64,000 bases of DNA from Candidatus Phosphoribacter hodrii (GCA_016707175.1 JADJIB010000001.1:718791-782790), one strand, 5' to 3'; counted from the stretch's first letter, positions 1,503-55,803 are shown. Numbers and translations: made by a program. Notes: generated by a model not told the origin, from the letters alone.

Positions 1503-1538
1503 AGGGGGCGGCATACCGAGTCGGTATGCCGCCCCCTC
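1503..1538. terminator. Perfect 36-bp palindrome (GAGGGGGCGGCATACCGA/TCGGTATGCCGCCCCCTC) between convergent genes; candidate bidirectional terminator
   Basis: Read directly. It is built from an inverted pair of the abundant octamer. No U-tract. Confidence 0.5.
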
Positions 1539-1557
1539 GCGTTGGTGCGCGAATCGG

Positions 1558-2772
1558 CTACTGCCGGTAGCTGGCCAGGAAGTTGCCGATGCGTCCGATG
1601 GCCTCTTCGAGCTCTTGGACGTGCGGCAGCGTGACGATCCGGAAGTGGTCGGGCCGCGGCCAGTTGAAGCCGGTGCCCTGCACGACGAGGATCTTGGCCT
1701 GGCGAACCAGATCGAGGGCGAAGCGCTCGTCGTCGTGGATCTCGTGGACCTCGGGGTCCAGCCGCGGGAACAGGTAGAGGGCGCCGCCGGGCTTGGTGCA
1801 CGTGACGCCGGGGATCGAGTTGATCAGCTCCCAGGCGAGGTTGCGCTGGGCGAGCAGGCGGCCGCCGGGGAGGATCAGCTCGGTGATCGACTGGTAGCCG
1901 CCGAGCGCCGTGGCGATCGCATGCTGCGCAGGCACATTGGCGCATAGCCGCATGTTCGCCAGGATGTTGAGGCCCTGGATGAAGGACCGGGCGTGGTGCT
2001 TGGGGCCCGAGAGCGCCAGCCAGCCGGACCGGAAACCGGCGACCCGATAGGCCTTGGACAGCCCGTTGAAGTTGAGGCAGAAGACGTCGGGCGCCAGGGA
2101 CGCCAGGGCCGTGTGGGTTGCGTCGTCGTAGAGGATCTTGTCGTAGATCTCGTCGGCCATGAGGACGAGTTCGTGCTCACGGGCCAGCGCGATGATTCCG
2201 CGCAGGACGTGGTCGGGATAGACCGCGCCGGTGGGGTTGTTGGGGTTGATGACGACGATCGCCTTGGTGCGCGGGGTGATCTTGGCCGCCATGTCGGCCA
2301 GGTCGGGGACCCACCCCTCGCTCTCGTCGCACAGGTAGTGCACCGGGGTGCCACCGGCGAGCGCGGTCGCGGCGGTCCACAGCGGGTAGTCCGGCGCGGG
2401 GATGAGGACCTCGTCGCCGTTGTCGAGCATGGCCTGCATGGCCATGACGATGAGCTCGCTGACGCCGTTGCCGAGGTAGACGTCCTCGGTGCTCACACCC
2501 TCGACACCCTTGAGCCGGTAGTACTGCGTGACGGCGCGCCGGGCCCCGATGATGCCCTTGGAATCGCTGTAGCCCTGGGCCAGCGGCAGCTGGGCAATCA
2601 TGTCGACGAGGATCTCGTCGGGGGCTTCGAAGCCGAAGGGTGCCGGGTTGCCGATGTTGAGCTTGAGGATGCGGTGACCCTCGTCCTCAAGCCGCTTGGC
2701 CTCCTCGAGCACCGGCCCCCGGATGTCGTAACAGACGTCGGCCAGCTTCTGGCTCTGGGTCAACTCGCGCAT
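1558..2772 (-). CDS. alaA: Alanine/glutamate-pyruvate aminotransferase, PLP-dependent (AlaA-like)
   Basis: 404-aa ORF. LADVCYDIRGPVLEEAKRLEDEGHRILKLNIGNPAPFGF...NGLSKAYRVAGFR...MRLCANVPAQHAI closely resembles E. coli AlaA along its length. Confidence 0.9.
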   Translation of the reverse strand: MRELTQSQKLADVCYDIRGPVLEEAKRLEDEGHRILKLNIGNPAPFGFEAPDEILVDMIAQLPLAQGYSDSKGIIGARRAVTQYYRLKGVEGVSTEDVYLGNGVSELIVMAMQAMLDNGDEVLIPAPDYPLWTAATALAGGTPVHYLCDESEGWVPDLADMAAKITPRTKAIVVINPNNPTGAVYPDHVLRGIIALAREHELVLMADEIYDKILYDDATHTALASLAPDVFCLNFNGLSKAYRVAGFRSGWLALSGPKHHARSFIQGLNILANMRLCANVPAQHAIATALGGYQSITELILPGGRLLAQRNLAWELINSIPGVTCTKPGGALYLFPRLDPEVHEIHDDERFALDLVRQAKILVVQGTGFNWPRPDHFRIVTLPHVQELEEAIGRIGNFLASYRQ

Positions 2773-2866
2773 GGGTCCAGCCTCCCACGGCCGGTATGCC
2801 GCCCCCGCACGGGTTTCTCACCACGTGAGCAGACCGGGTTCAGCCAGGCGTGCGATGCTGGCAGGT

Positions 2867-3289
2867 ATGCGGGTCACGATGCTGTTGGCCGATCATGCGG
2901 TCGTCGCCGAAGGCAAGCTCTATGTCAATGGGGGCGGTTGGTCGATCCGTCCGGCCGGCCCCACACCGATGTTCCTGGCGCTGAAGTTCGACGTGCCGTG
3001 GGATCTGGCCGGTCGTCCCATCGAGGTGGAACTACGCCTGGTCGACGAGGACGGGCACCTGGTCGCCCAGCGCACCCCGCAGGGTGACCAACCCGTGCTC
3101 GTCAATGCCCGGCTGGAGGTTCAGCGGCCCCCGGGCCTGACGCCCGGTGCGCCGATCGATGCCGCGATGGCGATCGGGGTGCCGCCGTTCGGGCTGCCCG
3201 CCGGTCGGCGGTATTCCTGGCGGCTGTCGGTCGACGGCCACCAGCGCGAGGACTGGGTCATCGAATTCGCCACCCGCCCCGAGGCGTAG
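2867..3289 (+). CDS. Hypothetical protein
   Basis: ORF 2771..3289. Likely ATG at 2867 (MRVTMLLADHAVVAEGKLYVNGGGW...). Coding-like composition; no family recognised. Confidence 0.5.
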   Translation: MRVTMLLADHAVVAEGKLYVNGGGWSIRPAGPTPMFLALKFDVPWDLAGRPIEVELRLVDEDGHLVAQRTPQGDQPVLVNARLEVQRPPGLTPGAPIDAAMAIGVPPFGLPAGRRYSWRLSVDGHQREDWVIEFATRPEA

Positions 3290-3296
3290 GGGACGC

Positions 3297-3887
3297 TCAG
3301 GGAGTCTTGTCGCCCCAGCGCACGAGGGTCCACGACCGCTGCGGTGTCCGGGTCAACTCGAGGACGATGGTGTTGTCCAGGCCGGTCGTGCGCAGGAAGT
3401 CGACCGTGAGGTTGGTCGCGCGGGCCGCGGCCCACGTGCGGATCATGGCGCCGTGGCTGATGACGGCGATAGTCCCCTGTCCAGCGGCGTGGGCCTCGTC
3501 GAGAACTGCGTCGAACCGCTCTAGAACCTCCCGTCCCGACTCCCCGCCTGGCATCCGAGCGTCGAGATCTGCGTTCCAGGACATGATCGTCGTGAGATAG
3601 CGGACCCAGTCGGCGGACATCTCGTCCTCGCCCGCCTGGATCTCCCGGATGCCGCCACGGACGACGACCTCGACACCGTGGCGAGCGGCCAGCGGCGCAG
3701 CCGTCTGCTGGCTGCGGGTCAGGTCGGAGGCATAGACGGCCTCGATCGGCTCGTCGGCGAGCGCCTCGGCCAGGGCCCGGGCCTGCTCGAGGCCGACCTC
3801 GTCGAGTGGGGCACCGGGGGCCGCAGTGTCGAGCAGTCGGGTGACGTTCGACGCGGTCTGGCCGTGTCGGATGAGCAAGAGTCGCAC
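3297..3887 (-). CDS. Histidine phosphatase family protein (phosphoglycerate mutase-like)
   Basis: MRLLLIRHGQTASN (RHG motif) ... ISHGAMIR. Confidence 0.85.
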   Translation of the reverse strand: MRLLLIRHGQTASNVTRLLDTAAPGAPLDEVGLEQARALAEALADEPIEAVYASDLTRSQQTAAPLAARHGVEVVVRGGIREIQAGEDEMSADWVRYLTTIMSWNADLDARMPGGESGREVLERFDAVLDEAHAAGQGTIAVISHGAMIRTWAAARATNLTVDFLRTTGLDNTIVLELTRTPQRSWTLVRWGDKTP

Positions 3888-3951
3888 CCACCGAGGCTAG
3901 CCGCTCCCGGCCCTGCGCTCGGCGCGGTTATCGCCACGCAGCGGTTTGAGC

Positions 3952-4683
3952 TCAGGGCTCCGCGAGGTCCGAGGGGACCGAGACGCCGAGGAAGTGGGCG
4001 GTGTCTGCATCGACGGGGTGCGCCCAGACCTCGGCCGTCTCACCTTGCTGCACCAACCGTCCGGCTCGCATGATCGCCGTCCGATCGGCCACCGTGAAGG
4101 CATCGCCATGGTCGTGGGTCACCATCATGGCCGTCGTCCCAGTCTCGGTGAGCACGTGCCGCAGGTCAGTGGCCAGCCGCTCGCGCAGCGACCGGTCCAG
4201 CGCCGACAGCGGCTCATCGAGCAACAACAACCGCGGGCGGGCAGCCAGAGCCCGAGCCAACGCGACGCGCTGACCCTCGCCGCCGCTGAGCGTGGTGGGG
4301 CGGCGCGCGGCATACCCCGCGAGGCCGACGAGCTCGAGCAGGCGGTCGACCTCCGAGCGCGCCTGCGCGCCACGGATCCCCTTGCGCGCCAAGGCATAAC
4401 CGACGTTCCCGGCCACATCGAGGTGACCGAACAACTGCCCGTCCTGGAACATCATCGCGAAGCCACGCCGATGGGTGGGCACCCCCGCCAGATCCGACCC
4501 GTCGAAGCTCACCGAGCCCGACGCGAGCGGCTCGAGCCCGGCGACGGCCCGCAGCAGGCTGGACTTGCCACACCCTGACGGCCCAAGGATCGCCATCACC
4601 GTGCCCGAGGGGACCTCAAGGCTGACATCGTCGACCGCGCGGGTCGCCCCGAAAGACACCGACACACGGCTGATCGAGAGCAT
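3952..4683 (-). CDS. thiQ: ABC transporter ATP-binding protein (thiamine importer, ThiQ-like)
   Basis: Walker A GPSGCGKSS, signature LSGGEGQRVALARAL, Walker B LLLDEP. Last gene of an operon headed by a TPP riboswitch. Confidence 0.75.
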   Translation of the reverse strand: MLSISRVSVSFGATRAVDDVSLEVPSGTVMAILGPSGCGKSSLLRAVAGLEPLASGSVSFDGSDLAGVPTHRRGFAMMFQDGQLFGHLDVAGNVGYALARKGIRGAQARSEVDRLLELVGLAGYAARRPTTLSGGEGQRVALARALAARPRLLLLDEPLSALDRSLRERLATDLRHVLTETGTTAMMVTHDHGDAFTVADRTAIMRAGRLVQQGETAEVWAHPVDADTAHFLGVSVPSDLAEP

Positions 4684-6347
4684 CAGAAGGCCCCCACTGA
4701 CGACACCCGCAGGCGCTCAACGACACCCATGACGGTGACGGTGACAACGGCGAGGATGACCGACGCCGCGAGTGCCATGCCGAGATTGTCGACCCCCGGG
4801 CGTCCGATGAGGCGATAGATGACCACGGGGAGGGTCGGGCTGTCGGGTCGGGCCAGGAAGCTCGTCGCACCGAATTCCCCCAGCGAGACCGCGAGCGCCA
4901 GCCCGATGGCCGCGAGCAAGGGCCGCCAGATGATCGGCAGGTCCACGGTGGCGAGCACCTGCCAGGGGCGAGCACCCAACGTCGCCGCGACTTGCCGTTG
5001 CCGGTCGTCGATAGCCCGCAGCACCGGCGCAAGGGTCCGCACCACCAGGGGCAGGGCGACGATCGCTTGGGCGATCGGGATGAGCACCGGCGAGGTCCGC
5101 AGGTCCAACGGCGGCCGGTCCAACGTGATGAGGAAGCCGAAACCGACCGTCACCGCAGACACCCCCAATGGCAGCATGACCACCCCGTCGAGCAACCGGC
5201 GCCATCGCAGACCGCCCGGCGAGCGGGCCGGGCGCGAGACGAGCACGGCGACGAGCAGGCCGAGGACGACGGCGAGGATCGTGGCATCGATGGCGATCCG
5301 CCACGACGTGCCCAGCGCCTCCCACACGGTGACCGGCAGCGCGCTACGACCGTCAGCCCCGCCGACCCGTCCCAACGCAAGGTAGTAGTCCAGGGTCCAC
5401 TCCCCCTGGCGCCGCAGCGAGCGCACCACCAACGCCAGCACGGGAACCGCGACGAACGCGACCGCCAGCACCGTGGCAATCACCGAGCCCATCGCGTATG
5501 CCGTGACCCGCCCCGGCGCGATCGCGGACTTCGCGGCCCGCTGGGTCCCGGCGTCGCGGGAGCGGGCCCGATCGGCCAGCAGCAGCATGGCGACGACGGC
5601 GACGAGTTGGACGACCGACAACACCGCCGCCCCGCGCAGGTCGAACAGCGCCGTCGTCAGCAGGTAGATCTCGGTCTCGACGGTGCCGTAGGCCAGCCCG
5701 CCCATCGTCAGCACGACACCAAAAGCCGTGGCGCAGAAGAGGAACACGATGGACGCCGCCGAGATGATCGACGGTGCCAGGGCGGGCAGCGTCACGGTGC
5801 GGAAGACCGTTGCGGGTCCGGCGCCCAAGGTGGCCGCGGCCTCCTCGGGCCGGCGGTCCAAGCCCTCCCAAGCCGCTCCGACCGTGCGCACGACGACCGC
5901 GAGATTGAAGAACACGAAGGCGGCGAGTATGCCGCCCCACTCCCCGTCCAGCCCCAGCCCACCGAGCGCGCCGCCCTCGGCGAGCAACGACCGGAACATC
6001 ACGCCGACCACGACGGTCGGCAGAACGAAGGGCATCGCGACGATGGCCCGAAGCGTCCGACGGCCGGGCAGGGCCAACCGATAGAGGGCGTGGGCCACCG
6101 GCACCCCGACGACGACCGAGATCACGGTCGCGGCCGCCGAGATGGCCAGGGTGAAGCCGATGATCCGTTGGGTCCGGGCCCGGCCAAGGACCTCGGCGAA
6201 GCCACCGAGGTCCAGCACCCCGCCCGGCGCGAAGCCCCGGGCGAGCATGCCTGCGACCGGAAGGGCGAAGAAGATGGCGAGGAAGCCGAGCGGGAGGATC
6301 GCCGCGACCGTGGTCGCGGCGATCCTCCCGGCTCGGTCCCGGGTCAC
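4683..6347 (-). CDS. thiP: ABC transporter permease with two MetI-like halves (ThiP-like)
   Basis: 554-aa polytopic membrane ORF. GTGA overlap with the upstream binding-protein gene and ATGA overlap with the ATPase gene. Confidence 0.75.
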   Translation of the reverse strand: MTRDRAGRIAATTVAAILPLGFLAIFFALPVAGMLARGFAPGGVLDLGGFAEVLGRARTQRIIGFTLAISAAATVISVVVGVPVAHALYRLALPGRRTLRAIVAMPFVLPTVVVGVMFRSLLAEGGALGGLGLDGEWGGILAAFVFFNLAVVVRTVGAAWEGLDRRPEEAAATLGAGPATVFRTVTLPALAPSIISAASIVFLFCATAFGVVLTMGGLAYGTVETEIYLLTTALFDLRGAAVLSVVQLVAVVAMLLLADRARSRDAGTQRAAKSAIAPGRVTAYAMGSVIATVLAVAFVAVPVLALVVRSLRRQGEWTLDYYLALGRVGGADGRSALPVTVWEALGTSWRIAIDATILAVVLGLLVAVLVSRPARSPGGLRWRRLLDGVVMLPLGVSAVTVGFGFLITLDRPPLDLRTSPVLIPIAQAIVALPLVVRTLAPVLRAIDDRQRQVAATLGARPWQVLATVDLPIIWRPLLAAIGLALAVSLGEFGATSFLARPDSPTLPVVIYRLIGRPGVDNLGMALAASVILAVVTVTVMGVVERLRVSSVGAF

Positions 6348-7543
6348 TTGGCCGTGACCTCACTCCATTGACGCAACCAGGTGTCCCGCTGGGCGGCGAT
6401 CTGGTCGGGCGACACGACGAACGGCTTGTCCGCGACCTTGGCCCACTTCGCCCAGTCGGTCGGCAGGGTGGCGGTCGAGTCGACGGGGAACATGTACATC
6501 GAGTCGGGGATTGACGCCTGCACGGCCGGGCTCAGCAGGAACGAGACCAGAGCACGCGCCCCCTCGGGGTTGCGGGCGCCGGCCAGCACACCGGCATACT
6601 CCACCTGCCGGAAGCACGTGTCCAGGAGCGCCTTCGTCGTCGGCTCGGTGGCGGCCTTGGGGATCGTGAACGGCGGCGAGGAGGCGTAGGACAGGACGAT
6701 CGGGCGGGTCCCGTGGCCCTCGCCGGCGCTGAAGTCGACGGAGTAGGCGTCGGTCCAACCGGCGGTGATCTTCGTGCCGTTGGCCATCAACGCCTTCCAA
6801 TAGGCCTGCCAGCCATCGCCTTTCGCGCCGATGGTCGCGAGGAGGAAGGCCAGACCGGGGCTGGAGGTCGTCGCGCCCGGCGTGACGAAGAGGTCCTTGT
6901 ATGCCGGTTGGGTGAGGTCGTCGAGGGTCGCCGGGACCGGTTTGCCCTTGGCCGCGAACCACGTGTGGTCGACGTTGACGCACACGTCGCCGTAGTCGAT
7001 CGGCGTCAGTTTGGTGGCTGCGGCGCCGGGCAGCGCGTGGGCCGACGCGCCGGCGGGCAGGGTCGGGGAGTAGTCCGCGAGGACGCCCTCGGTGACGGCC
7101 CGGCTGGCGAAGGTGTTGTCGATCCCGAAGACGGCGTCGCCGATCGGCGAGGCCTTGGTGAGGGCGAGTTTGTTGGTCAGCTCGCCCGCGTCGCCGCTGG
7201 CCAGCACCTTGATCGTGCAGCCGGTCGCCTTGGTGAAGGCCGCGGTCAACTCGTCGGACAGCCCGAACGAGTCGTGGCTGACCAGCAGGACCTCGGTCAC
7301 AGCGCCGCACCGGGGTGCGGCCGTGCTGGACGGGCTGCTGACCTGGGACGCGGTCGCGGTCCCCGACGTCGTCGCGGGAGCTGTGGCGGTGGTCGTCGAG
7401 CTCAGCGAACAGGCCGAGAGCGACGCAGTGAGGGCGACCGCAAGAACGGCGCCGGGGATCGCGAAACGGTTCTTGCGCAAGGGATCCCTGCGGACGGGAC
7501 TCCTGCGCAACGGAACCCGGACGCGCGGGTGGGCGAACGGCAT
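6344..7543 (-). CDS. thiB: Thiamine ABC transporter substrate-binding lipoprotein (ThiB/TbpA-like)
   Basis: Signal/lipobox LTASLSACS. Family-1 SBP-like sequence. Directly downstream of the TPP riboswitch. Confidence 0.75.
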   Translation of the reverse strand: MPFAHPRVRVPLRRSPVRRDPLRKNRFAIPGAVLAVALTASLSACSLSSTTTATAPATTSGTATASQVSSPSSTAAPRCGAVTEVLLVSHDSFGLSDELTAAFTKATGCTIKVLASGDAGELTNKLALTKASPIGDAVFGIDNTFASRAVTEGVLADYSPTLPAGASAHALPGAAATKLTPIDYGDVCVNVDHTWFAAKGKPVPATLDDLTQPAYKDLFVTPGATTSSPGLAFLLATIGAKGDGWQAYWKALMANGTKITAGWTDAYSVDFSAGEGHGTRPIVLSYASSPPFTIPKAATEPTTKALLDTCFRQVEYAGVLAGARNPEGARALVSFLLSPAVQASIPDSMYMFPVDSTATLPTDWAKWAKVADKPFVVSPDQIAAQRDTWLRQWSEVTAK

Positions 7544-7599
7544 ACTGACATCTCCTCCTGGTTCAGGAGGGGCCGTCGACCCATCGAAGGTCGACGGGT

Positions 7600-7690
7600 G
7601 AGACTCGACTCCCTTCGCCGGTGCTAACCGGAGCAGGTTCGAGGGTCTGCGGCGGACCGCACTCTCAGCGCTGGGGCGCTCCCCTGTCGT
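7600..7690 (-). promoter_or_regulatory. TPP (THI-box) riboswitch aptamer
   Basis: Minus strand reads GGGGAGCGCCCCAGCGCUGAGAGUGCGGUCCGCCGCAGACCCUCGAACCUGCUCCGGUUAGCACCGGCGAAGGGAGUCGAG. It carries the CUGAGA, ACCC..GAACCUG and CCGGCGAAGGGA THI-box hallmarks. A downstream hairpin and a CCCCUCCUG stretch are complementary to the AGGAGGAG SD. Confidence 0.85.
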
Positions 7691-7782
7691 GGCGATGATG
7701 ACTTTACCCCGAGTCCGTGCCAGAGTCGGACGAGGCGAACGACACGGGTTGGCGAGTGGCCCGGTGGAGCAGGAGGTGCGGG

Positions 7783-8076
7783 ATGGGTCCGATGGTGTGG
7801 AAGGTGCTGGGCACCGGCTCGGCAGTGCTGGCGGCGACCGTCGCCCAGAAGCTCGTCACCAAGGGCTGGGAGCTCGCCTCCGGTAAGCCGGCCCCCGACG
7901 ACCCCAACCATCCCGAGGACACAACTTGGAAAGAGGCCGTCCTCTTCGCCGCCCTCACCGGGCTGGCCGTGAGCGCGGCCCGGGTCATGGCGACCCGCAA
8001 GGCGGCCCAGTACTACGCGAAGTCGGCTGGTCACCTGCCCGCCGCGTTGGTCAAGGCCGACGGCGCGACCGGCTGA
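7783..8076 (+). CDS. DUF4235 domain-containing protein
   Basis: ATG at 7783 behind GGAGCAGGAGG. MVWKVLGTGSAVLAATVAQKLVTKGWE...KEAVLFAALTGLAV is typical of the family. Confidence 0.7.
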   Translation: MGPMVWKVLGTGSAVLAATVAQKLVTKGWELASGKPAPDDPNHPEDTTWKEAVLFAALTGLAVSAARVMATRKAAQYYAKSAGHLPAALVKADGATG

Positions 8077-8104
8077 CGCGGCATACCGGATCGCGTATGC
8101 CGCG
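8077..8104. terminator. Hairpin CGCGGCATAC-N8-GTATGCCGCG between convergent genes
   Basis: 10-bp stem made of an inverted octamer pair, seen directly. Confidence 0.4.
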
Positions 8105-8109
8105 CGCGC

Positions 8110-9435
8110 TCAGCTCGCGTCGCGGATCAACGACAGCGCCTCACGCATGAGCGGGGCGACCGGGCCGAACGCATGCTGGCCGTTCTCGACGATGACCCGA
8201 CCGCCGACGACAACGGTGAGGACGTCCGCGGCGCTCGCGGTGTAGATGACCTCGGCGGCCTTGCTGCCTGCGGTGCGGGTGGACTCGAGATCCACGGTGA
8301 TGAAGTCGGCGACGAGACCGGGGGCGATGGACCCGCCGTCATACCAACCCAGGCTCTGATAGCCGTGGACCGACCCGCAGCGCAGGAGTTGGGGGGTCGA
8401 GATCCGGCCACGCTCGCCGCTGCCGAGGCGCTCGTGCATCTCGAGTTCACGCATCTCGACGAACGGGTCGATGAAGGCGTGTTGGTCGGTGCCGATGCCG
8501 ACCGGGACCCCGGCGTCGAGGAGCCTGCGGACCGCCGGGACGCCATCGGCCATGTCCTGCTCGGACGTCGGGCAGACGACCACCTGGCACTCGTGGTCGG
8601 CCAGGAGGCTGATGTCGCGCTCAGTGAGGTGGGTCGCGTGGACGGCCGTGAACTCCGACCCGAGCACGCCGATGTCGGCGAGGAGTTCGGTCGGGGTGGT
8701 GCCGTAATACATCTGGCAGGCGAGGTTCTCGGCGGGCTGCTCGGAGACATACATGTGCAGCGGACGGTCCCCGACGAGTTGCGCGGCGTAGGCGGCGTCC
8801 TCGCGCGACACGGCCCTGATCGAGTGGATCGCCGCGCCCCGACGAAGCAATTCGGTCTGCTCGATGCGGGCGGTGCGGGCGGCCCAGGCCTCGACGCTGC
8901 CGTCGCTGAACCGCTGCTGCACACCGTCGAGCGGCAGGTGCCCCTCGGAGGTGAGCCCACCCTGCAGGTAGAGGGTGTCCAGCAGGGTCAGTCGGATCCC
9001 GACCTCGTGCGCTGCCCTGGCCAGGGCAGCGCCCATGGCGTTGGGGTCGGAGTAGCGCGAGCCGCCCGGACCGTGGTGCAGGTAGTGGTATTCGCCGACC
9101 ACGGTGATGCCGGCCAGCGCCATCTCGGCGAAGGTGGCCCGGGCCAGAGCGAGATAGAGATCGGGGTTGAGGCGTTCAGCGACGTCGTACATCTTTGCGC
9201 GCCAAGTGATTCCGTTGTCCGCGTCAGACTGGGTGCGTCCGCGCAGGACCCGCTGGAAGACATGGCTATGGGCATTGGCCAACCCGGGAAAGACGACACC
9301 GCGGAGTTTGACATCCTCGGGGTGGCGGGTCGCTCGGGGCTCGACGACGACGAACCGACCATCGTCCACGACCAAGCGCACGCCGCGGGCCAAGCCCGAC
9401 GGCAGCCACACGTGCTCGGCCCAGAACGACGACAC
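8110..9435 (-). CDS. hutF: Formimidoylglutamate deiminase-like amidohydrolase
   Basis: GTG at 9435 behind AAGGAG. FPGLANAHSHVFQR metal-binding motif, ITWRAKMY, GEYHYLHH, VHATHL. Resembles HutF / guanine-deaminase-type amidohydrolases. Confidence 0.65.
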   Translation of the reverse strand: MSSFWAEHVWLPSGLARGVRLVVDDGRFVVVEPRATRHPEDVKLRGVVFPGLANAHSHVFQRVLRGRTQSDADNGITWRAKMYDVAERLNPDLYLALARATFAEMALAGITVVGEYHYLHHGPGGSRYSDPNAMGAALARAAHEVGIRLTLLDTLYLQGGLTSEGHLPLDGVQQRFSDGSVEAWAARTARIEQTELLRRGAAIHSIRAVSREDAAYAAQLVGDRPLHMYVSEQPAENLACQMYYGTTPTELLADIGVLGSEFTAVHATHLTERDISLLADHECQVVVCPTSEQDMADGVPAVRRLLDAGVPVGIGTDQHAFIDPFVEMRELEMHERLGSGERGRISTPQLLRCGSVHGYQSLGWYDGGSIAPGLVADFITVDLESTRTAGSKAAEVIYTASAADVLTVVVGGRVIVENGQHAFGPVAPLMREALSLIRDAS

Positions 9436-9638
9436 GACACTCCTTGTCGATCGACTCGATCGTGCTCGACGGTGCCTCGACCACCACGTGGCCCGTCGAG
9501 GACAGCCTCCATCCTGACATTGCCAGGCGTCCAGATGTGACAACCGGGACTACCTGCCCCCTTTAAACCCTTCGTCGGCGTCGACGGCGGCGGCTGCGTC
9601 GTCGACGGCGGCACCGCGACGCGGCATACCCTGGGGCG

Positions 9639-10133
9639 ATGGTGGGCACGAGCGAGGGTGAGGCGCGAGCGTTGGCCGCGTTGTCGGCGGCCGGGGTCGC
9701 GCACGAGGTCACGCGACACGGGCCGGTCGGGAGCCTGGCGGAGGCTGCGGCGGCGCGTGGGGTGCGGCCGGCTGACATCGTCAAGACGCTCGTGGTGCGG
9801 CGCGGGGACGGGGATTTCCTGTTCGTGCTCGTACCCGGGGATCGGAAGTTCTCGTGGCCGAAACTACGGGCGCTGCTGGGCACGTCGCGGTTGTCGATGC
9901 CCGACGCCGACGGGGCGCATGCCGCGACCGGTTACGTTCGCGGGACCATCACGCCCTTCGGGTCGAGCCGCGCCTGGCCGGTGATCGCCGACTCGTCGAT
10001 GGTGGGTCGGACGATTTCGATGGGTGCCGGCGCGCACGGGGTGGCCGTGACGGTGGCGGCTGACGAGGTCGTGCGGGCTCTGGATGCCCAGGTAGCCGAC
10101 GTCGGCGATACCGAAGAGCCCACCCCTGCCTGA
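9639..10133 (+). CDS. YbaK/EbsC-family aminoacyl-tRNA deacylase
   Basis: 164-aa ORF. IVKTLVV..GDFLFVLVPGDRKFSWPKLRALLG...GYVRGTITPFG. Confidence 0.8.
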   Translation: MVGTSEGEARALAALSAAGVAHEVTRHGPVGSLAEAAAARGVRPADIVKTLVVRRGDGDFLFVLVPGDRKFSWPKLRALLGTSRLSMPDADGAHAATGYVRGTITPFGSSRAWPVIADSSMVGRTISMGAGAHGVAVTVAADEVVRALDAQVADVGDTEEPTPA

Positions 10134-10250
10134 TCTGCCTGACCTGCCTGACCTGCCCGTTTCCCAAGATCCTCACACTCGCCGATGATCTGAGGCCTTC
10201 ACGGGCCGATTCGCCCCAACTTCCCCACACCCGCCGGCGATCTTCTGGAG
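10126..10250 (+). repeat. 9-bp tandem repeat (CTGCCTGAY x3.5) followed by two copies of the CACAC(C/T)CGCCG hairpin repeat
   Basis: Cores at 10174-10184 and 10226-10236, read directly. Confidence 0.8.
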
Positions 10251-10309
10251 GGCGGCGCCGTCAGCGGGCCAGGACGACGGCCACTTGACGGCTGATGTCC
10301 TCCACGAGC

Positions 10310-10906
10310 TCAGGAGGTCGCGGGCTGCCACGGGGTGAGCCACGGCGTCGCCGGCCATCCCTCGCGCCCCGCCATGAGCTCGTACATCGTGGCCCCGTCG
10401 ATCGATTCGCGGATCAGGTCGGCATGGCCGGCGTGCCGGGCGAGTTCCTCGATCAGGTGCAGGGCCACCCAGCGAACGGTCCAGGCCGGCACGTCCTTGG
10501 GGAACCAGGGCACGTCCTGCGGAACGGGAACGGAGGTGTTCAGATCCGCCGCGAGGATCGCCGCACTCGTCGCCGCGCTCTCGGCATCGAGACGTGCCAG
10601 CGCCACGGCGAGGCTGTCGCCGGGCAACCAGGTGTGCTCCGAGGCCCACCGCTCCTGTGCCTCCTCCATCGTCCCGGGGTGCACGACGAGGGCAGGCGCC
10701 TGCTCGATCATCCGGCGCCAACCGGTCTGCACGCTCGCGGCGTGCTTGACCAGGCTGCCGACGGAGAGGTCGCTCCGGGCGGCCTTCTGCCCCGCCTGCT
10801 CATCGCTCAGCCCGTAGGCGGCGTTGCGGAAGGCATCCTGTTGCTGCGTGAGGTAGCCAACGAGCAGGGCCTTCTCGTCAACCGAGGCGGGCGCGAGTCC
10901 GGGCAT
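10310..10906 (-). CDS. DinB/DUF664 family protein (mycothiol-transferase-like)
   Basis: ATG at 10906 behind AGGAG. LVGYLTQQQDAFRNAAYGLSDEQ...WVALHLIEELARHAGHADLIRE. Confidence 0.75.
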   Translation of the reverse strand: MPGLAPASVDEKALLVGYLTQQQDAFRNAAYGLSDEQAGQKAARSDLSVGSLVKHAASVQTGWRRMIEQAPALVVHPGTMEEAQERWASEHTWLPGDSLAVALARLDAESAATSAAILAADLNTSVPVPQDVPWFPKDVPAWTVRWVALHLIEELARHAGHADLIRESIDGATMYELMAGREGWPATPWLTPWQPATS

Positions 10907-11020
10907 GGTCACTCCTAGTGGTCGAGGTGCTCCCATCATGTCCCGGAGGTATGACAGACCCCTTGGTGGCGGCGCGGCGCGGAGGCGCGAAGGCACCGAG
11001 GGGCGGGCGAGAAGGACCGG

Positions 11021-12292: not shown

Positions 12293-12320
12293 GACCAACG
12301 CCGCGGCTACGCTCGATCTC

Positions 12321-13298: not shown

Positions 13299-13337
13299 GG
13301 CCCGGCCGACGACCTCGGCACGATCGCTTGACCTCGC

Positions 13338-13385
13338 GACATACTCGGTATAGCGTCCCTCACCAGCACCTATACCGAGTATGTC
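13338..13385. promoter_or_regulatory. 16-bp perfect inverted repeat (GACATACTCGGTATAG-N16-CTATACCGAGTATGTC) upstream of padR; candidate operator
   Basis: Seen directly. Each arm is itself a near-palindrome ATAC-N3-GTAT. AT-rich relative to its surroundings. Confidence 0.45.
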
Positions 13386-13415
13386 CCAGCGCGTGAGAGC
13401 CCCCGAGGAGGTCCG

Positions 13416-14944: not shown

Positions 14945-14947
14945 GCG

Positions 14948-17991: not shown

Positions 17992-18065
17992 GCGCTTCTG
18001 CACGCAACCGTTTGGCCGACTGCGACGTCTCAACCGACACAGGGGATCGACCTCCGCGGACGCGT

Positions 18066-18094
18066 GGGCGGCATACACAGGGGGTATGCCGCCC
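18066..18094. terminator. Hairpin GGGCGGCATAC-N7-GTATGCCGCCC downstream of the permease gene
   Basis: 11-bp stem made of an inverted octamer pair, seen directly. Confidence 0.4.
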
Positions 18095-18141
18095 ACCGAG
18101 TCCCGGAGCCCCCTTCGGGCCGAGTGCGGCAAGATGGAGCC

Positions 18142-45283: not shown

Positions 45284-46153
45284 GTGACCACTGGGGGACG
45301 GGCACCTCGCCACCGGGGTCCACGGCATACCCTCCTGTATGCCGCGTGCGCGGCGCTAACGCTACTCGCCACGGCCTGTTCCGGCGCGAGTCCAACCACC
45401 GCGACGCCCACCACGACCTTGGTCAGCGAGACACCGACGACCTGGGCCACGCAGACACCAGCGACCACCGTCCCGACGACCGCTGCGGCGCCCACGGCGA
45501 GTGAGCCCGCGCCCACCGCGTCATCGACCGCCACCACGTCCTCACCTCGGCCCAGCAGCAGCTCGCCGACGGCGGCCCCCGTCGCGGGAGTCCTTCGCAT
45601 CGTTGACGCGTGGATTCCCTACTCGCAGCAGCGCAAGGACGAGATGGCGGCATACGCCAAGCGTCACTATGGGGTTGATTCCTGGACGCTGGACCCCCAG
45701 GTGATCGTCCTGCACTTCACCGAGACGGACACCTGGGAGCCGGTGCGATCGAGTTTCGCCATCGACTCGCCCAACCGGGGTGAGCTGCCCGGGACGTGCG
45801 CCCACTTCGTCGTCGACCAGTCCGGCATCGTCCACGCGCTCGTCCCGACCAACGTCATGTGTCGGCACGCCATCGGGCTCAACCACGTGGCGATCGGCAT
45901 CGAGATCGTGCAGGCGACCCACGGTCACACGTCGCTGTGGGCCGATCAGCAGATCCTCGCGCGGCCCGCTCAGATCCAGGCAGTGCTGGCGCTGGTCCGG
46001 AAGTTGCAGGCTCAGTTCGGCATCGCGAACTCAGATGTGATCGGTCACGCGACCGCCAACGGGCACCGGCTCTTCCTGGACAAGGAAGGCTGGCGCAACG
46101 ACCACACCGACTGGCAGGCCCCCAGCGTCGCCGAGTTCCGCTCCCGCCTGTAA
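45284..46153 (+). CDS. Lipoprotein N-acetylmuramoyl-L-alanine amidase (Amidase_2/PGRP fold)
   Basis: Lipobox LLATAC, Thr/Pro linker, then VIVLHFTETD...CAHFVVDQSGIVHALVP...GLNHVAIGIEIV...VIGHATANG. Confidence 0.8.
   Translation: MTTGGRAPRHRGPRHTLLYAACAALTLLATACSGASPTTATPTTTLVSETPTTWATQTPATTVPTTAAAPTASEPAPTASSTATTSSPRPSSSSPTAAPVAGVLRIVDAWIPYSQQRKDEMAAYAKRHYGVDSWTLDPQVIVLHFTETDTWEPVRSSFAIDSPNRGELPGTCAHFVVDQSGIVHALVPTNVMCRHAIGLNHVAIGIEIVQATHGHTSLWADQQILARPAQIQAVLALVRKLQAQFGIANSDVIGHATANGHRLFLDKEGWRNDHTDWQAPSVAEFRSRL
46116..46153 (+). repeat. Left copy of a ~38-bp direct repeat (3' end of the amidase gene)
   Basis: ggcaggcccccagcgtcgccgagttccgctcccgcctgtaa versus the second copy at 46494-46531. 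Confidence 0.85.
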
Positions 46154-48163: not shown

Positions 48164-48187
48164 AAGGCGATTCGCACCTCACGTGAG

Positions 48188-48220
48188 CGGGGCGGCATAC
48201 CCATCAGGTATGCCGCCCCG
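48188..48220. terminator. Hairpin CGGGGCGGCATACC-catca-GGTATGCCGCCCCG between convergent genes
   Basis: 14-bp perfect stem, 5-nt loop, made of an inverted octamer pair. Confidence 0.55.
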
Positions 48221-48265
48221 CCCCACGCCCCAGCCGCAACTGAATGGGGTCACCGAGCCGCGGGC

Positions 48266-49087: not shown

Positions 49088-49091
49088 TCAC

Positions 49092-51703: not shown

Positions 51704-53084
51704 TCAGGCTGGATCGAGCCGCCCCGCGTCCAACAACCCCGACCAGGTGTCGAGCTTGGTGCGATCGCGACCCAGGGCGGCACCCCGAGCGATCTCGGCA
51801 GCGTCGATGGCCCGCCAGCCATCGAGGCTGATCACCTCGTGGCCCTGCTCGGCCAACGCGGTGAGCAGGTCCGGTCGGTCCGCCCCGGTCACCCACCCCA
51901 CCGGCCGCCCCGCCATCGCCGGCCCGCGCGGCCACCAAGTCGGCCACGAGGTGGCGCACGGTCTGCGACGCATCCGACTTGTTGGTGCCGATGACCCCGG
52001 TCGGGCCGCGCTTGATCCACCCGACGACATACTCCCGAGGCAGCACCTCCCCGTCCGCCCCAACGATCCGCCCCTCGACGTTGGGGATCACCGCGGCACG
52101 CTCGTCGAACGGCACCCCGGCCAGCGCGGTCGACCGATACCCGATCGAGCGCAGCACCAACTCGGTCTCCAGCCGCTGGGTCTCGCCAGTCCCCACGACC
52201 TTGCCCGCCTCGTCCAGCCGGGTCCGCTCGAGCACGAGCGCTTCGACGCGGCCGTCGCCCTCGATGGCAATCGGCTTGCGCCAGAACCAGAAATGCAGCC
52301 GCCGACGCGGGTTCTCGACGACCTTCGCGGCCGCCTCCCGCAGGATCTCGACGTTCGCCTTCGGTCGGCGCTCCAGGTCATCGGGTATGCCGTCGAACGC
52401 GTCCTCGTTGACGCTCACCGCCAGCCCCGGCGTGTGGACGAGCTCGCGCAGCTCGACCGTCGTGAAGGCCGCGTGCTGCGGACCGCGCCGCGCGATGACG
52501 TGGATGTCGTCGGCCTGGTGCCGGTGCAGTTCAGCCAACACCGCCGGGGGCATGTCGGTCACTTCGAGCGAGTCGGCCGTCTTGGCCAGGACCCGGGCGA
52601 CGTCGACCGCGACGTTTCCGACGCCGATCACCGCCGCAGTCCGCACGCCGCCGAGGTCCTGCGCGGGGGCGTCCGGATGCCCGGAATACCAAGCGACGAA
52701 CTCGCGCGCCGACCGGCTGCCCGCCAGGTCCTCCCCCGGGACGCCGAGCTGGGCATCCTCAGCCGCGCCCGCGGCATACACAACGGCGTCGTAGGCCGCG
52801 AGAAGCTGCTCGCGCGAGATGTCTCGACCGAGCTCGACGTTGCCGATGAAGCGGACGCCGCTGCTGTCGAAGGTGCGGGCCAGCGCGTTGGCGACCGACT
52901 TGATGCTCGTGTGGTCAGGCGCAACGCCGTAGCGCAGCAGGCCGTAGGGCGTCGGCAGCCGGTCGATGAGGTCCACCTGCACCGGCAATTCGCTCTGCCC
53001 AACCAGTGATTGGGCAGCGAACAACCCGGACGGGCCGGCTCCCACAATCGCCACCCGGGTGACGTCCCGATCTGCACTGCCCAT
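51704..53084 (-). CDS. fprA: FprA-type NADPH:ferredoxin (adrenodoxin) reductase; apparent frameshift near 51900-51945
   Basis: ATG at 53084 behind GGAGG. VAIVGAGPSGLFAA, TPYGLLRYGVAPDH, GVGNVAVDVARVL. The C-terminus continues in ORF 51704..52063 (...ADRPDLLTALAEQGHEVISLDGWRAID). Confidence 0.75.
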
Positions 53085-53184: not shown

Positions 53185-53208
53185 GAGGTATGCCGCGCGG
53201 CATACCTC
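53185..53208. promoter_or_regulatory. 24-bp perfect palindrome GAGGTATGCCGC/GCGGCATACCTC in the divergent fprA / K+-channel intergenic region
   Basis: Seen directly. Function unknown. Confidence 0.3.
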
Positions 53209-53250: not shown

Positions 53251-54315
53251 GTGAGCATCGTCCGCCGCATGTCCCTCGCGATCGGGTCGCTGCTTGTCAT
53301 CACGGTCTATGGCGTCGTGGGTTACATGATCCTCGGCTACAACCTGCTCGACGCGATCTACCAAGCGGTCATGACCCTGACGACTGTGGGCTATGGCGAG
53401 GTCTTGGAAGCGACGCCGGTGCGCAAGGCGTTCTCGACCAGCCTGATGATCCTCGGGGTCGGTATCGCTCTTTACAACCTCACGGTGATGGTCGGGACGG
53501 TCACCGAGGGGGATGTCCGGAAGTACTTCGAAAGGCGTCGGATGGACAAGCGAATCTCGGGCATGAGTGGCCACGTCATCATCTGTGGCCACGGCCGGGT
53601 GGGTCGCTCGGCGCGCGAGCACCTGAAGAACATTGGTTCGCAGGTGGTCGTCGTCGACAACGTCCCCGATCGGGTCATGCACCTTGAGGACCCGCACCTC
53701 ATCGGCGACTGCACGCGCGACGAGGTGCTCCGCGCGGCCGGCATCGACCGTGCCCGCGCCCTCATCGCCACCCTGGAGACCGACGCCGACACCGTCTATC
53801 TCACCCTCTCGGCGCGGGCCCTGCGTCCCGATCTGGTCATCATCGCCCGCGCCCGCACCGTCGACTCCAAGGAGAAGCTCGTCCTCGCCGGGGCGACCCG
53901 AGCCGTCAACCCGCAACTCATCGGCGGTCGCCGCATGGCGGCCTTCGCGCTCAACGCCCATGTCGCGGAGTTCCTCGACGTCGTCATGCACGACGAGGAG
54001 CTCGATTTCCGGATCGAACAAATCCGGATCCCAGTCGACTCGCCGTTGGCTGGCCGCAGCCTCGGCGAGTTGGACCTGGAGCAATCGTCCGGCGCGCGCC
54101 TGCTCGCCCATCGACCAGGCCCGCGTATGCCGTTCGCCCCCCACCCGTCGTCGGACACCGTGCTGGAGCCCGGGTCGGTGTTGATCGCGTTCGGCACGAT
54201 GGCCCAGATCGAGCACCTCATGGATCAGGCCTCTCCCGACCCCGGGACGCTCGGGGCAGGGCCCGCCGCCCCCGGTGGCCCCGTCTCCCCCATCATCGCC
54301 CGCACGTCGGCTTAG
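53251..54315 (+). CDS. Two-TM potassium channel with RCK (TrkA-N/TrkA-C) domains
   Basis: Selectivity filter TLTTVGYGE. RCK fold VIICGHGRVGRS. Start is GTG 53251 or ATG 53269. Confidence 0.85.
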   Translation: MSIVRRMSLAIGSLLVITVYGVVGYMILGYNLLDAIYQAVMTLTTVGYGEVLEATPVRKAFSTSLMILGVGIALYNLTVMVGTVTEGDVRKYFERRRMDKRISGMSGHVIICGHGRVGRSAREHLKNIGSQVVVVDNVPDRVMHLEDPHLIGDCTRDEVLRAAGIDRARALIATLETDADTVYLTLSARALRPDLVIIARARTVDSKEKLVLAGATRAVNPQLIGGRRMAAFALNAHVAEFLDVVMHDEELDFRIEQIRIPVDSPLAGRSLGELDLEQSSGARLLAHRPGPRMPFAPHPSSDTVLEPGSVLIAFGTMAQIEHLMDQASPDPGTLGAGPAAPGGPVSPIIARTSA

Positions 54316-54329
54316 GCAGTCGCGACGAC

Positions 54330-55556
54330 TCAGGCCTCGTCGAGGGGGCGCAGCACCAGGCCGGTGCGCAGTTTGGGTGTGAAGAACGTCGACTTGGGTG
54401 GCATGAGCAGGCCCTCGCGCGCCGTCCGCTCGATCTGCTCGAGGCTGGTCGGGCGGATAAGGATCGCCAGGGCCTGCGGGTCGGCGTGCAGCACATCGAG
54501 CACCTCGGCCACCCCGTGCTGGTAGTCCAGCACCGCCCCTGTCCCGGCCAGCGTGTGCTCCAGCCAGGCGCCGTCGAGCGCCCGCACGTCGTCGAAAGCC
54601 CCCGGCCGCGGCACCAACCAGGTCGCCACCTCCGGTGACTCGATGAGCAACAACCGCCCTGAGCGGTTGAGCTCGGCGAGCAGCGCCGGGCCGGGCTGGG
54701 CGGCGGGGGCGGGCACCAACTCGAAGTCCCTCGCCAACGCCTCCCGCAAGGCTGCCGGGGTCAGGCCCCGGACAATGCGGTGGATGGCGTCGATAGCCAA
54801 CTGATCGGCGACGAGCTCGCCCACGAAGGCCAACGTGGCCCCCGCCCCGGATGCGCTCTCGGGCTCTTTGGCCTCCGCCATCTCATCGCGGTAGCGCCGG
54901 GCCACGCCATAACGGTGGTGACCGTCGGCGATCAACACGTCGTCGGCGCCGATGATCGCCGAGATCGCGGCGATCCGGTCGGGGTCGATAACCCGCTCGA
55001 CGACATGTTCGACGCCGTCGACGACCAGACTCCCCATCGGCTCGGCGGGCTCGGCGAGCGCAGCGGTCAAACCCTGCGCCAGCGACAGCCCCCAGACCGG
55101 CGAGAGGTTGGTGCCAGTGGCCCGGGTGAGATCGAGACGGTCGGTCGACGCCTTGGGCGTGGTCCGCTCATGCGGAAGCACCTGACCGGCCCCCTCAGCG
55201 ACCACCTCCAACCCGCCGAGAACCCCGACCAACTCGCGTCGCTGGCCGGCTTCGTCGACGAAACGCATCCGATAGATCGACAGCGTCGGCACCTCGTCAC
55301 GGACCAGGACGCCGGTCTCCTGCCAGTCGCGCAGCAGGTGCGCGGAGGCGGCATACCGGGTCGAGTCGGTGCCTGCGGGGATGTCCGCGTGGACGATGTT
55401 GTGCGGGTCGCGAGCCCGAAGTGCGGCGACGTCGGCGTCGGACAACACGTCGTAGGGCGGTGCGATGACGGCGTCGAGGTCGATTCCGGGCGCGTAGCGC
55501 AGAGCCCGGAACGGCTCGAACCGAGGCCCGCGAGAAGGGGCAGGTGCGGGCGGCAT
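54330..55556 (-). CDS. DUF1015 domain-containing protein
   Basis: FEPFRALRYAP...VIAPPYDV...LPHERT...ADGHHRY...LMPPKSTFFTPKLRTGLV. Confidence 0.85.
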   Translation of the reverse strand: MPPAPAPSRGPRFEPFRALRYAPGIDLDAVIAPPYDVLSDADVAALRARDPHNIVHADIPAGTDSTRYAASAHLLRDWQETGVLVRDEVPTLSIYRMRFVDEAGQRRELVGVLGGLEVVAEGAGQVLPHERTTPKASTDRLDLTRATGTNLSPVWGLSLAQGLTAALAEPAEPMGSLVVDGVEHVVERVIDPDRIAAISAIIGADDVLIADGHHRYGVARRYRDEMAEAKEPESASGAGATLAFVGELVADQLAIDAIHRIVRGLTPAALREALARDFELVPAPAAQPGPALLAELNRSGRLLLIESPEVATWLVPRPGAFDDVRALDGAWLEHTLAGTGAVLDYQHGVAEVLDVLHADPQALAILIRPTSLEQIERTAREGLLMPPKSTFFTPKLRTGLVLRPLDEA

Positions 55557-55803
55557 ACCTGGAAGTCTAGGCAACGAGTGAGCCTGCCTCCGTGAGCAGT
55601 TCGAGATGCGGAACCGCAGACTGTGGGCAACAATGCTCATGTATGCCGCGTGTCGGCGAACGGTGGCGCTCCCCCTCGTGTCCATCGCTCGGGCCATGCC
55701 CCTGGCCTCACCGCACGCGGCATACCCATGCCCTCGGGTCGTGGGAGACTCGGGACGGGCTCCGACCCGGGGCCGCCGGACCAGGGAGGCGCGCGGTAGC
55801 CGC

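What the first reader, a model, noticed from the sequence alone, without database searches (positions are those of the whole stretch)
1503..55725. Inverted pairs of the octamer form perfect palindromes at gene boundaries
Two oppositely oriented octamers build strong hairpins at these sites. (a) 1503-1538: a 36-bp perfect palindrome between convergent DUF4190 and alaA. (b) 8077-8104: 10-bp stem between convergent DUF4235 and hutF. (c) 18066-18094: 11-bp stem after the FtsX permease. (d) 48188-48220: 14-bp stem with a 5-nt loop between the convergent SGNH hydrolase and czcD. (e) 53185-53208: a 24-bp perfect palindrome in a divergent promoter region. (f) 55641-55652 / 55714-55725: 12-bp arms enclosing 61 nt in the nadE leader. 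Uptake sequences in Neisseria and Haemophilus are likewise often found as inverted pairs that double as terminators. None of these hairpins has a U-tract. If they terminate transcription, they do so like the tail-less hairpin terminators reported in Actinobacteria.
Basis: partly seen in the sequence, partly recalled or inferred. Interest (0 to 1): 0.6.

Follow-up and report, generated by a model that had tools for sequence, protein, structure and literature searches.

The report
Octamer-pair hairpins at gene ends
In this wastewater actinobacterium (a Candidatus Phosphoribacter relative), a hugely over-used 8-base DNA word often sits as an inverted pair forming strong tail-less hairpins just after stop codons, as the DNA-uptake tags of Neisseria and Haemophilus do in terminators; whether they end transcripts is untested.

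Summary
Observation confirmed. All six sites exist; only lengths and coordinates need small corrections. The word is CGGCATAC: 5,101 copies in the 3.9-Mb genome, about 30-fold over chance in the window, equal on both strands.

A genome-wide census with my own crude gene calls found 305 inverted pairs within 45 bp. The 75 pairs with stems of 13 bp or more lie almost only downstream of genes: 48 tandem, 18 convergent, 3 divergent, 6 "coding". The median distance from the stop codon is 23-31 nt. In long spacers, 20 of 20 lie next to the stop. About a third of the genome's strongest perfect hairpins carry the pair.

The hairpins have no U-tract, but neither do the non-octamer hairpins. Short-stem pairs (8-9 bp) are mostly inside genes. 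Sites (e) and (f) lie in divergent spacers and are not terminators.

Stems persist in Ca. P. baldrii with compensatory changes. One is replaced by a non-octamer hairpin.

New point: same-strand copies avoid each other up to about 800 bp and opposite-strand copies do not. An inverted pair therefore supplies one copy per strand.

Termination itself is untested, because the tool that finds sequencing runs was closed. Uptake function is inferred, not shown.

The parts
1502..1538 (.). Site a. Hairpin GAGGGGGCGGCATACCGA-G-TCGGTATGCCGCCCCCTC in the convergent spacer between DUF4190 (stop at 1478) and an alaA-like aminotransferase (stop at 1558).
   Evidence: -48.6 kcal/mol, z -9.6. An octamer-pair hairpin occupies the orthologous position in L001 and in L002, where one stem position shows a compensatory change. 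In L006 and in Intrasporangium oryzae L014 the arm order is the opposite. L003-L005 have no hairpin there.
8078..8104 (.). Site b. 10-bp stem and 7-nt loop in the 33-nt convergent spacer between DUF4235 and an amidohydrolase (hutF-like).
   Evidence: z -1.9, the weakest of the six.
18064..18096 (.). Site c. 13-bp stem and 7-nt loop, 73 nt after the end of the frameshifted FtsX-type permease (coding signal ends at 17991). The spacer is convergent with the minus-strand ORF 18268-18990.
   Evidence: Conserved and lengthened to 17 bp in Ca. P. baldrii (G006) while the flanks diverge.
48187..48221 (.). Site d.
   Evidence: -39 kcal/mol, z -8.6. No synteny in G006, so it could not be compared.
53185..53208 (.). 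Site e. Perfect 24-nt palindrome GAGGTATGCCGCGCGGCATACCTC in a divergent spacer, between an FprA-like oxidoreductase (minus strand, start about 53084) and a TrkA-type K+ channel gene (plus strand, start 53251). Not at a 3' end.
55641..55725 (.). Site f. 12-bp octamer arms closing a conserved 61-nt interior, in the divergent spacer between DUF1015 (minus) and nadE (plus, start 55804). A separate conserved structured element, not a terminator.
   Evidence: -49.6 kcal/mol, z -5.6. Near-identical in six genomes of the genus, with indels that are not multiples of three. Little covariation. No Rfam family.
45323..45344 (.). Further close inverted pair, CGGCATAC-CCTCCT-GTATGCCG, in the 856-nt gap between my gene calls 43580-44788 (minus) and 45644-46153 (plus).
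   Evidence: Conserved in G006 as a perfect 10-bp stem.

Best explanation
The inverted pairs that matter are those whose pairing runs beyond the octamer, to 13-21 bp. They are 3'-end hairpins. They sit 10-40 nt after stop codons, are GC-rich and lack a U-tail. They belong to the same class as the genome's other, non-octamer 3' hairpins.

Most likely they act in the RNA. They either stop RNA polymerase weakly, with help from factors, or block 3'-exonucleases after Rho-dependent termination. This step is inferred.

The octamer itself is not what makes them hairpins. It is a genome-wide, clade-specific DNA word that is kept at about one copy per 1.5 kb on each strand separately. A 3' stem is free to take any self-complementary GC-rich sequence, so it is the cheapest place to write the word. 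Because a stem is symmetric, one hairpin delivers one copy to each strand.

This explains several observations together. About a third of the strongest hairpins carry the pair. Inverted pairs are enriched while direct pairs are avoided. Either arm order is used.

What reads the word is unknown. My best guess is a strand-specific step of DNA uptake or recombination, as for DUS/USS. That too is inferred.
For: Position:
- Stems >=13 bp: 48 tandem, 18 convergent, 3 divergent, 6 'coding'. With high-confidence flanking genes: 43/15/2/6.
- Against single copies: OR about 50, p 1e-47.
- Median 23-31 nt from the stop.
- In tandem spacers >=200 nt, 20 of 20 lie in the stop-proximal half, median 28.5 nt from the stop and 258 nt from the next start.

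Same class as other hairpins:
- Of perfect hairpins with stem >=13 bp and loop <=12 nt, 56 carry the octamer pair (51 in tandem or convergent spacers) and 117 do not (85).
- Stem length, stem GC and downstream T content match the non-octamer hairpins.

Stem under selection:
- Compensatory changes occur at site a in L002 and at C5:9182 and C3:169924 against G006.
- Site c is kept in G006.
- One octamer hairpin is replaced by a non-octamer hairpin at the orthologous gene end (C1:273428).

One copy per strand:
- Same-strand neighbours are depleted to 0.46-0.73x out to 800 bp, while opposite-strand neighbours stand at 1.0-1.3x.
- Per-strand spacing has CV 0.79-0.81, against 1.0 for both strands pooled.
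- Around inverted pairs, further copies (both orientations counted together) drop to 0.34-0.7x. Around single intergenic copies only the same strand is depleted.

The word is a maintained signal:
- 395 of 429 positions (92%) are exact in G006, against 29% of background 8-mers.
- It is abundant in all 19 congeners and in two further genera of the family among the relatives searched, and at intermediate density in loci of several cultured Terrabacter, Humibacillus and Intrasporangium strains.
- It shows no replication skew.
- It forces rare codons such as TAT and GCA (that these codons are rare is general knowledge of high-GC genomes, not measured here).

Precedent: tail-less hairpin 3' ends outnumber U-rich ones in Streptomyces Term-seq (PMC8269248).
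Against: - There are no RNA data.
- Sense and antisense folding energies do not differ, and downstream T content shows no significant asymmetry. Nothing in the sequence therefore shows the RNA of one particular strand to be the selected form.
- The census rests on my own crude gene caller. It mis-called at least the gene beside site e and the gene at site c.
- Only 10 hairpins could be compared with G006, and 3-4 of them were simply lost.
- Two other genera that carry the word showed no long hairpins in 200 kb each, though at their density only about one was expected.
- From memory, not checked here: in vitro work on mycobacterial RNA polymerase found that tail-less hairpins do not terminate unaided.
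Confidence: 0.6

Rival explanations
1. Passive by-product. The word is driven to high copy number everywhere. Long palindromes made of it survive only where they do no harm, that is in 3' spacers and away from promoters and coding sequence. They have no role in transcription or RNA stability.
For: Single copies are also enriched between genes: 22% of copies in 14% of the DNA. Hairpins turn over between species. There is no strand asymmetry in folding or tails.
Against: Tolerance alone does not predict the tight placement 23-31 nt after stops, including 20 of 20 cases in spacers >=200 nt with plenty of room. It also does not predict compensatory stem changes, or a non-octamer hairpin taking the place of an octamer hairpin at the same gene end.
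Confidence: 0.15
2. DNA-level element. The inverted pair is a binding site for a dimeric protein, or a cruciform or ssDNA hairpin used in recombination, replication or DNA uptake, rather than an RNA structure.
For: The structures are perfectly symmetric and show no sense/antisense bias. Compact palindromes such as site e (24 nt) occur in promoter regions. The word behaves as a DNA signal read strand by strand.
Against: The distance between the two octamers varies from 0 to more than 25 nt, and both arm orders occur. That does not fit a fixed dimer geometry. Pairing extends through arbitrary flanking sequence. The location tracks stop codons.
Confidence: 0.12
3. REP/MITE-like mobile palindromic element that spreads as a unit into intergenic DNA.
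For: A sub-family shares a 17-nt arm, TGAGCGGGCGGCATACC: 57 arm copies and 20 hairpins by a strict pattern.
Against: The genome has no Y1/RAYT transposase. Flanks are heterogeneous, and I saw no obvious target duplication when reading them, though I made no systematic search. Roughly 97% of octamer copies lie outside the long-stem hairpins, and most are inside genes and positionally conserved.
Confidence: 0.05
4. Canonical intrinsic (hairpin plus U-tract) terminators.
For: GC-rich stems with 1-8 nt loops lie just after stops.
Against: The mean is 2.1 T in the 8 nt after the stem. Only 7 of 73 hairpin views have >=4 T. The consensus terminator scan of window 1-20000, which holds sites a-c, flags none of them.
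Confidence: 0.03

Closest known systems
Inverted-repeat DUS (Neisseriaceae) and USS (Pasteurellaceae) in transcription terminators
   Same: A short asymmetric word that is hyper-abundant, equal on both strands, clade-specific and written into genes and spacers. A minority of copies (here 12% within 45 bp, against about 10% for H. influenzae, PMC1939737) form inverted pairs, and those concentrate in 3'-end hairpins (70-90% of inverted-repeat DUS/USS lie in predicted terminators, 10.1101/2025.10.24.684340). Even spacing was also noted for USS (Karlin et al., as cited in PMC1939737).
   Different: The phylum is different (Actinomycetota, family Dermatophilaceae/Intrasporangiaceae) and so is the word (CGGCATAC). 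No competence or sequence-biased uptake has been shown, and no receptor is known. The hairpins lack U-tracts. One-mismatch variants are depleted, not enriched. Spacing regularity applies per strand, which I have not seen described for DUS/USS.
Tail-less ('I-shaped') hairpin 3' ends of high-GC Actinobacteria
   Same: Strong GC-rich stem-loops without A/U tracts just after genes. In Streptomyces clavuligerus Term-seq, U-lacking structured 3' ends (353) outnumber U-rich ones (182) and reduce read-through less (PMC8269248).
   Different: Here a third of the strongest ones are built from a single genome-wide word. Whether such hairpins terminate, or only protect ends made by Rho, is unresolved in the literature and untested here.
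REP/BIME elements of Enterobacteria and Pseudomonas
   Same: Repeated palindromes in 3' and convergent spacers that can stabilise upstream mRNA. This genome has a small sub-family with a shared 17-nt arm.
   Different: There is no RAYT. The conserved unit is only 8 nt. Most copies are single and inside genes.
HIP1 (GCGATCGC) of cyanobacteria
   Same: An octamer at about 1 per kb, positionally conserved between species, with an unknown reader.
   Different: HIP1 is itself a palindrome. This word is asymmetric and its two orientations behave independently.

Membership tests
DUS/USS-type DNA uptake sequences (inverted pairs in terminators) | Short word, strongly over-represented, equal on both strands, no replication skew | tested here: met
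   5,101 copies (2551+/2550-) against 116 for the control word. The two strands are balanced in every 50-kb bin.
DUS/USS-type DNA uptake sequences (inverted pairs in terminators) | Shared by a clade and absent from its neighbours | tested here: met
   Abundant in 19 of 19 congeners and in 2 of 5 other genera of the family among the relatives searched. At background level in 16 other families. Also present in loci of cultured Terrabacter, Humibacillus and Intrasporangium strains.
DUS/USS-type DNA uptake sequences (inverted pairs in terminators) | Inverted pairs concentrated in 3'-end stem-loops | tested here: met
   66 of 75 long-stem pairs lie in tandem or convergent spacers, at a median of 23-31 nt after the stop.
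DUS/USS-type DNA uptake sequences (inverted pairs in terminators) | The organism is naturally competent and takes up DNA bearing the word preferentially | not testable with these tools
   The organism is uncultured. ComEC is present, but it is present in all 41 relatives whatever their octamer density.
DUS/USS-type DNA uptake sequences (inverted pairs in terminators) | A dedicated receptor (ComP-type minor pilin or equivalent) | not tested
   No candidate was identified.
Canonical intrinsic terminator | U-tract immediately 3' of the stem | tested here: not met
   2.1 T in 8 nt. 7 of 73 hairpin views have >=4 T. No sense bias. Sites a-c are not flagged by the consensus scan of window 1-20000.
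Canonical intrinsic terminator | Transcripts end at the site | not testable with these tools
Tail-less (I-shaped) actinobacterial 3' hairpin | Stable GC-rich stem-loop without a U-tail, just downstream of a stop codon | tested here: met
   Stems of 13-21 bp, GC 0.75, loops mostly 1-8 nt. z from -5 to -9.6 for sites a, c and d.
REP/RAYT system | A Y1 (RAYT) transposase in the genome | tested here: not met
   PF01797 gives no match in G000. The control genomes do give matches.
REP/RAYT system | A repeated unit of 20-40 nt, conserved as a whole and confined to intergenic DNA | tested here: not met
   Only the 8-mer is shared by all copies. 78% of copies are in genes. The sub-family with a 17-nt arm has only about 20 hairpins.

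The most novel reading that the evidence does not exclude
The octamer is read on single-stranded DNA, or directionally on one strand, by an unidentified uptake or recombination machine. Each strand is therefore tagged independently, about every 1.5 kb. The hairpins after genes would be 'two-strand tags' parked in the only sequence that is free to vary. That would make this the first DUS/USS-like self-DNA recognition system in Actinobacteria, and one with explicit strand specificity.
Probability: 0.3. Interest if true: 0.85.

Novelty: new variant of a known kind. Interest (0 to 1): 0.6.

Why it matters
Uptake-type genome words that double as terminator stems are known only from two proteobacterial families. 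Here the same architecture appears in high-GC Actinobacteria, including the dominant phosphate-removing bacteria of wastewater plants.

- It gives a concrete, countable class of tail-less 3' hairpins on which to test whether such structures terminate transcription in Actinobacteria. That question is still open.
- The contrast between enriched inverted pairs and avoided direct pairs points to a reader that works one strand at a time. This narrows the search for the machinery behind the word.
- Cultured relatives (Terrabacter, Humibacillus xanthopallidus, Intrasporangium oryzae) carry the word, so the questions can be tested at the bench.

Tried and rejected
- Whole-segment RNA folding of 3' regions did not discriminate. 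Almost every 90-nt GC-rich stretch folds below -20 kcal/mol.
- Sense against antisense folding energy, as a G-U wobble test for RNA-level selection: no signal in either hairpin class.
- Downstream T asymmetry: not significant.
- Replication-strand skew, as for Chi or KOPS: none.
- REP/RAYT: no Y1 transposase.
- ComEC as a marker of competence: present in every relative, so uninformative.
- Rfam: no family at any hairpin or at site f.
- Literature searches for the word in this family, or for competence in Phosphoribacter, found nothing relevant.
- Other genera with the word (G022, G023; 200 kb each) showed neither alternating orientation nor long hairpins. At half the density only about one hairpin was expected, so this is uninformative.
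- Reading site f as coding sequence, an N-terminal extension of DUF1015, was rejected because relatives differ by indels that are not multiples of three.
Full report
**What is there**

The six sites are real. The shared word is CGGCATAC, with complement GTATGCCG, most often in the context [G/A]CGGCATAC[C].

The heptamer core occurs 107 times in the 64-kb window, against 3.2 +/- 1.8 in shuffles. The octamer occurs 5,101 times in the 3.9-Mb assembly, 2551 on one strand and 2550 on the other. The reversed control word occurs 116 times.

The genome is a nanopore-type MAG close to Candidatus Phosphoribacter baldrii, of the Dermatophilaceae/Intrasporangiaceae.

- Site a has 18-nt arms around one central base, at 1502-1538.
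- Site c has a 13-bp stem, at 18064-18096.
- Site d has a 15-bp stem, at 48187-48221.

Folding z-scores are -9.6 (a), -1.9 (b), -5.3 (c), -8.6 (d), -3.5 (e) and -5.6 (f).

Gene context:
- Pfam confirms DUF4190 and the aminotransferase at site a, DUF4235 and the amidohydrolase at site b, the cation-efflux gene at site d, and DUF1015 and nadE at site f.
- At site c, the GC3 signal of the frameshifted FtsX gene ends at 17991, so the hairpin lies in a convergent spacer.

So sites a-d lie at 3' ends, and sites e and f do not.

**Census**

No gene finder was on hand. I called genes from codon-usage log-odds on long ORFs: 3,344 genes covering 86% of the DNA. This caller is crude. It mis-called the genes at sites c and e. 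Such errors blur the pattern below; they would not create it.

Neighbouring copies within 45 bp in inverted orientation number 305. Their location depends on how far the pairing extends:

| Stem length | Pairs | Coding | Tandem | Convergent | Divergent |
|---|---|---|---|---|---|
| 8-9 bp | 136 | 89 | 25 | 4 | 18 |
| 10-12 bp | 94 | 45 | 33 | 7 | 8 |
| >=13 bp | 75 | 6 | 48 | 18 | 3 |

(One further 10-12 bp pair lies at a contig edge.) When both flanking genes are required to be high-confidence, the >=13 bp class reads 43 tandem, 15 convergent, 2 divergent and 6 coding.

Single copies fall 3661 in coding sequence, 458 in tandem, 116 in convergent and 229 in divergent spacers. Long-stem pairs are therefore strongly enriched at 3'-facing spacers: OR about 50, p 1e-47. 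For convergent against divergent the figures are OR 11.8, p 3e-6.

The pairs sit a median of 23-31 nt from the stop codon. In tandem spacers of 200 nt or more, all 20 lie in the stop-proximal half, at a median of 28.5 nt from the stop and 258 nt from the next start. Avoiding promoters does not by itself explain this placement.

**Share of all hairpins**

Among all perfect hairpins in the genome with a stem of at least 13 bp and a loop of at most 12 nt:
- 56 carry the octamer in both arms, and 51 of these lie in tandem or convergent spacers.
- 117 do not, and 85 of these lie in such spacers.

At the intergenic density of the word, about two such hairpins would carry it by chance.

The two classes look alike in stem length (16 bp), stem GC (0.75 and 0.74) and downstream T content (2.1 and 1.9 T in 8 nt, against a background of about 1.2). 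Neither class has a real U-tract. Among hairpins in tandem spacers, neither shows a significant excess of T on the transcript-sense side. A consensus terminator scan of window 1-20000, which holds sites a-c, flags none of them. Both arm orders are used equally with respect to transcription.

**Comparison with relatives**

I aligned 480 kb of Ca. P. baldrii (G006), which is about 80% identical in nucleotides. In it, 395 of 429 octamer positions (92%) are exactly conserved, against 29% of background 8-mers (the window alone gave 69 of 74).

Hairpins:
- Site c is kept and lengthened.
- Site a is kept in L001 and in L002, the latter with a compensatory G-C to C-G change. In L006 and in Intrasporangium oryzae an octamer-pair palindrome with the arms in the opposite order takes its place. 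It is absent from three other relatives.
- Of 10 further long-stem hairpins that could be anchored in G006, five keep the pair. Two of these, C5:9182 and C3:169924, show compensatory changes.
- One is replaced by a non-octamer hairpin at the same gene end (C1:273428).
- The rest are lost.

The stem therefore appears to be the selected unit, with the octamer as an optional building block. The sample is small.

**Why pairs**

Neighbouring copies are in opposite orientation 65% of the time. Measured against a Poisson expectation, same-strand copies are depleted: 0.18x within 20 bp, about 0.5x at 80-300 bp and 0.73x at 500-800 bp. Opposite-strand copies stand at 1.0-1.3x beyond 50 bp.

Per-strand spacing has a CV of 0.79-0.81, while both strands pooled give 1.0. 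Three congeners also show alternating orientation, with 0.68-0.71 of neighbours opposite.

Around inverted pairs, further copies (both orientations counted together) drop to 0.34-0.7x out to about 1 kb. Around single intergenic copies only the same strand is depleted, and the opposite strand stands at 1.1-1.7x.

So each strand seems to need its own copy, and a hairpin supplies both at once. This accounts for inverted pairs being enriched while direct pairs are avoided. I tested it here independently.

**What the word is not**

- It shows no replication skew, so it does not behave like Chi or KOPS.
- The genome has no RAYT transposase, and hairpin flanks are heterogeneous, so it is not REP-like. 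A sub-family with the arm TGAGCGGGCGGCATACC does exist.
- One-mismatch variants are rarer than their control words.
- ComEC is present, but it is present in every relative. Rho is present.

**Sites e and f**

Site e is a 24-nt palindrome 43 nt upstream of the TrkA-like start, in a divergent spacer. It could be an operator, or simply a compact tag for both strands. I cannot tell which.

Site f is an 85-nt element whose interior is almost invariant in six genomes of the genus, while its flanks diverge and differ by indels that break the reading frame. It folds at -49.6 kcal/mol, shows little covariation and has no Rfam match. It is a separate candidate regulatory element.

**Mechanism, and what is shown**

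Shown:
- the anatomy of the hairpins;
- their placement at 3' ends;
- the absence of U-tracts;
- their likeness to non-octamer hairpins;
- conservation with compensatory changes;
- per-strand spacing of the word.

Inferred:
- that the hairpins act in RNA, as factor-assisted tail-less terminators or as 3'-end protectors after Rho-dependent termination;
- that the word is an uptake or recombination tag read on one strand.

Streptomyces Term-seq shows that U-lacking structured 3' ends are common and reduce read-through moderately (PMC8269248). DUS/USS inverted repeats lie in predicted terminators in 70-90% of cases (10.1101/2025.10.24.684340).

**Verdict**

This is a new variant of a known kind: uptake-sequence-type inverted pairs in terminator-like hairpins, here in Actinobacteria and without U-tails. 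I found no report of this word in the searchable literature.

Noticed in passing
window 30820-31363 (and about 90 other places in the assembly, e.g. C1:558358-560130): Long runs of G (or C, T), up to 1.8 kb. These are almost certainly assembly or polishing artefacts of this nanopore-type MAG. They inflate the CCCCCCCC and AAAAAAAAA k-mer counts.
   Followed up: partly
window 7593-7695 (-): TPP riboswitch (RF00059, 59.4 bits, above the gathering score). It was the only Rfam match in the window.
   Followed up: no
window 55737-55785: A second conserved leader motif upstream of nadE (GTGGGAGACTCGGGACGGGCTCCGACCCGGGGCCGCC). It also appears in G014, a more distant congener that lacks element f. It has no Rfam family and may be a nadE cis-regulatory RNA.
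   Followed up: partly
whole genome (G000): Same-strand copies of the octamer avoid each other up to about 800 bp, while opposite-strand copies do not. Per-strand spacing has CV about 0.8. One-mismatch variants of the word are rarer than their reversed control words.
   Followed up: yes
G000 C1:519590, C2:496524, C5:11941, C15:6427; also C3:3365/22275/67204/224479; C3:139452/198128; C1:269181, C2:928759, C17:13592: Several other repeated palindrome families without the octamer. Examples are GGTCGAGGTATTCCGCCATC...GATGGCGGAATACCTCGACC, CGTACCTCAGGTACGCA..., and 46-50-nt perfect palindromes centred on TGATCA. Most lie in convergent spacers. They may be REP/MITE-like elements or operator sites.
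   Followed up: no
window 14948-17991: The FtsX-type permease is frameshifted. The GC3 phase changes near 17650-17800, consistent with sequencing errors in the assembly. This made my gene caller read through site c.
   Followed up: partly
window 51704-53084 (-): An FprA-like pyridine-nucleotide oxidoreductase that my gene caller replaced with a shadow ORF on the plus strand (52293-53009). It serves as a warning about the census error rate.
   Followed up: yes
G000, about 20 hairpins, e.g. C1:9283, C2:920617, C10:98274: A sub-family of octamer hairpins with a shared 17-nt arm, TGAGCGGGCGGCATACC, used in either arm order. It is often followed on one side by a G/T-rich flank such as CTGCGTGGGG.
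   Followed up: partly
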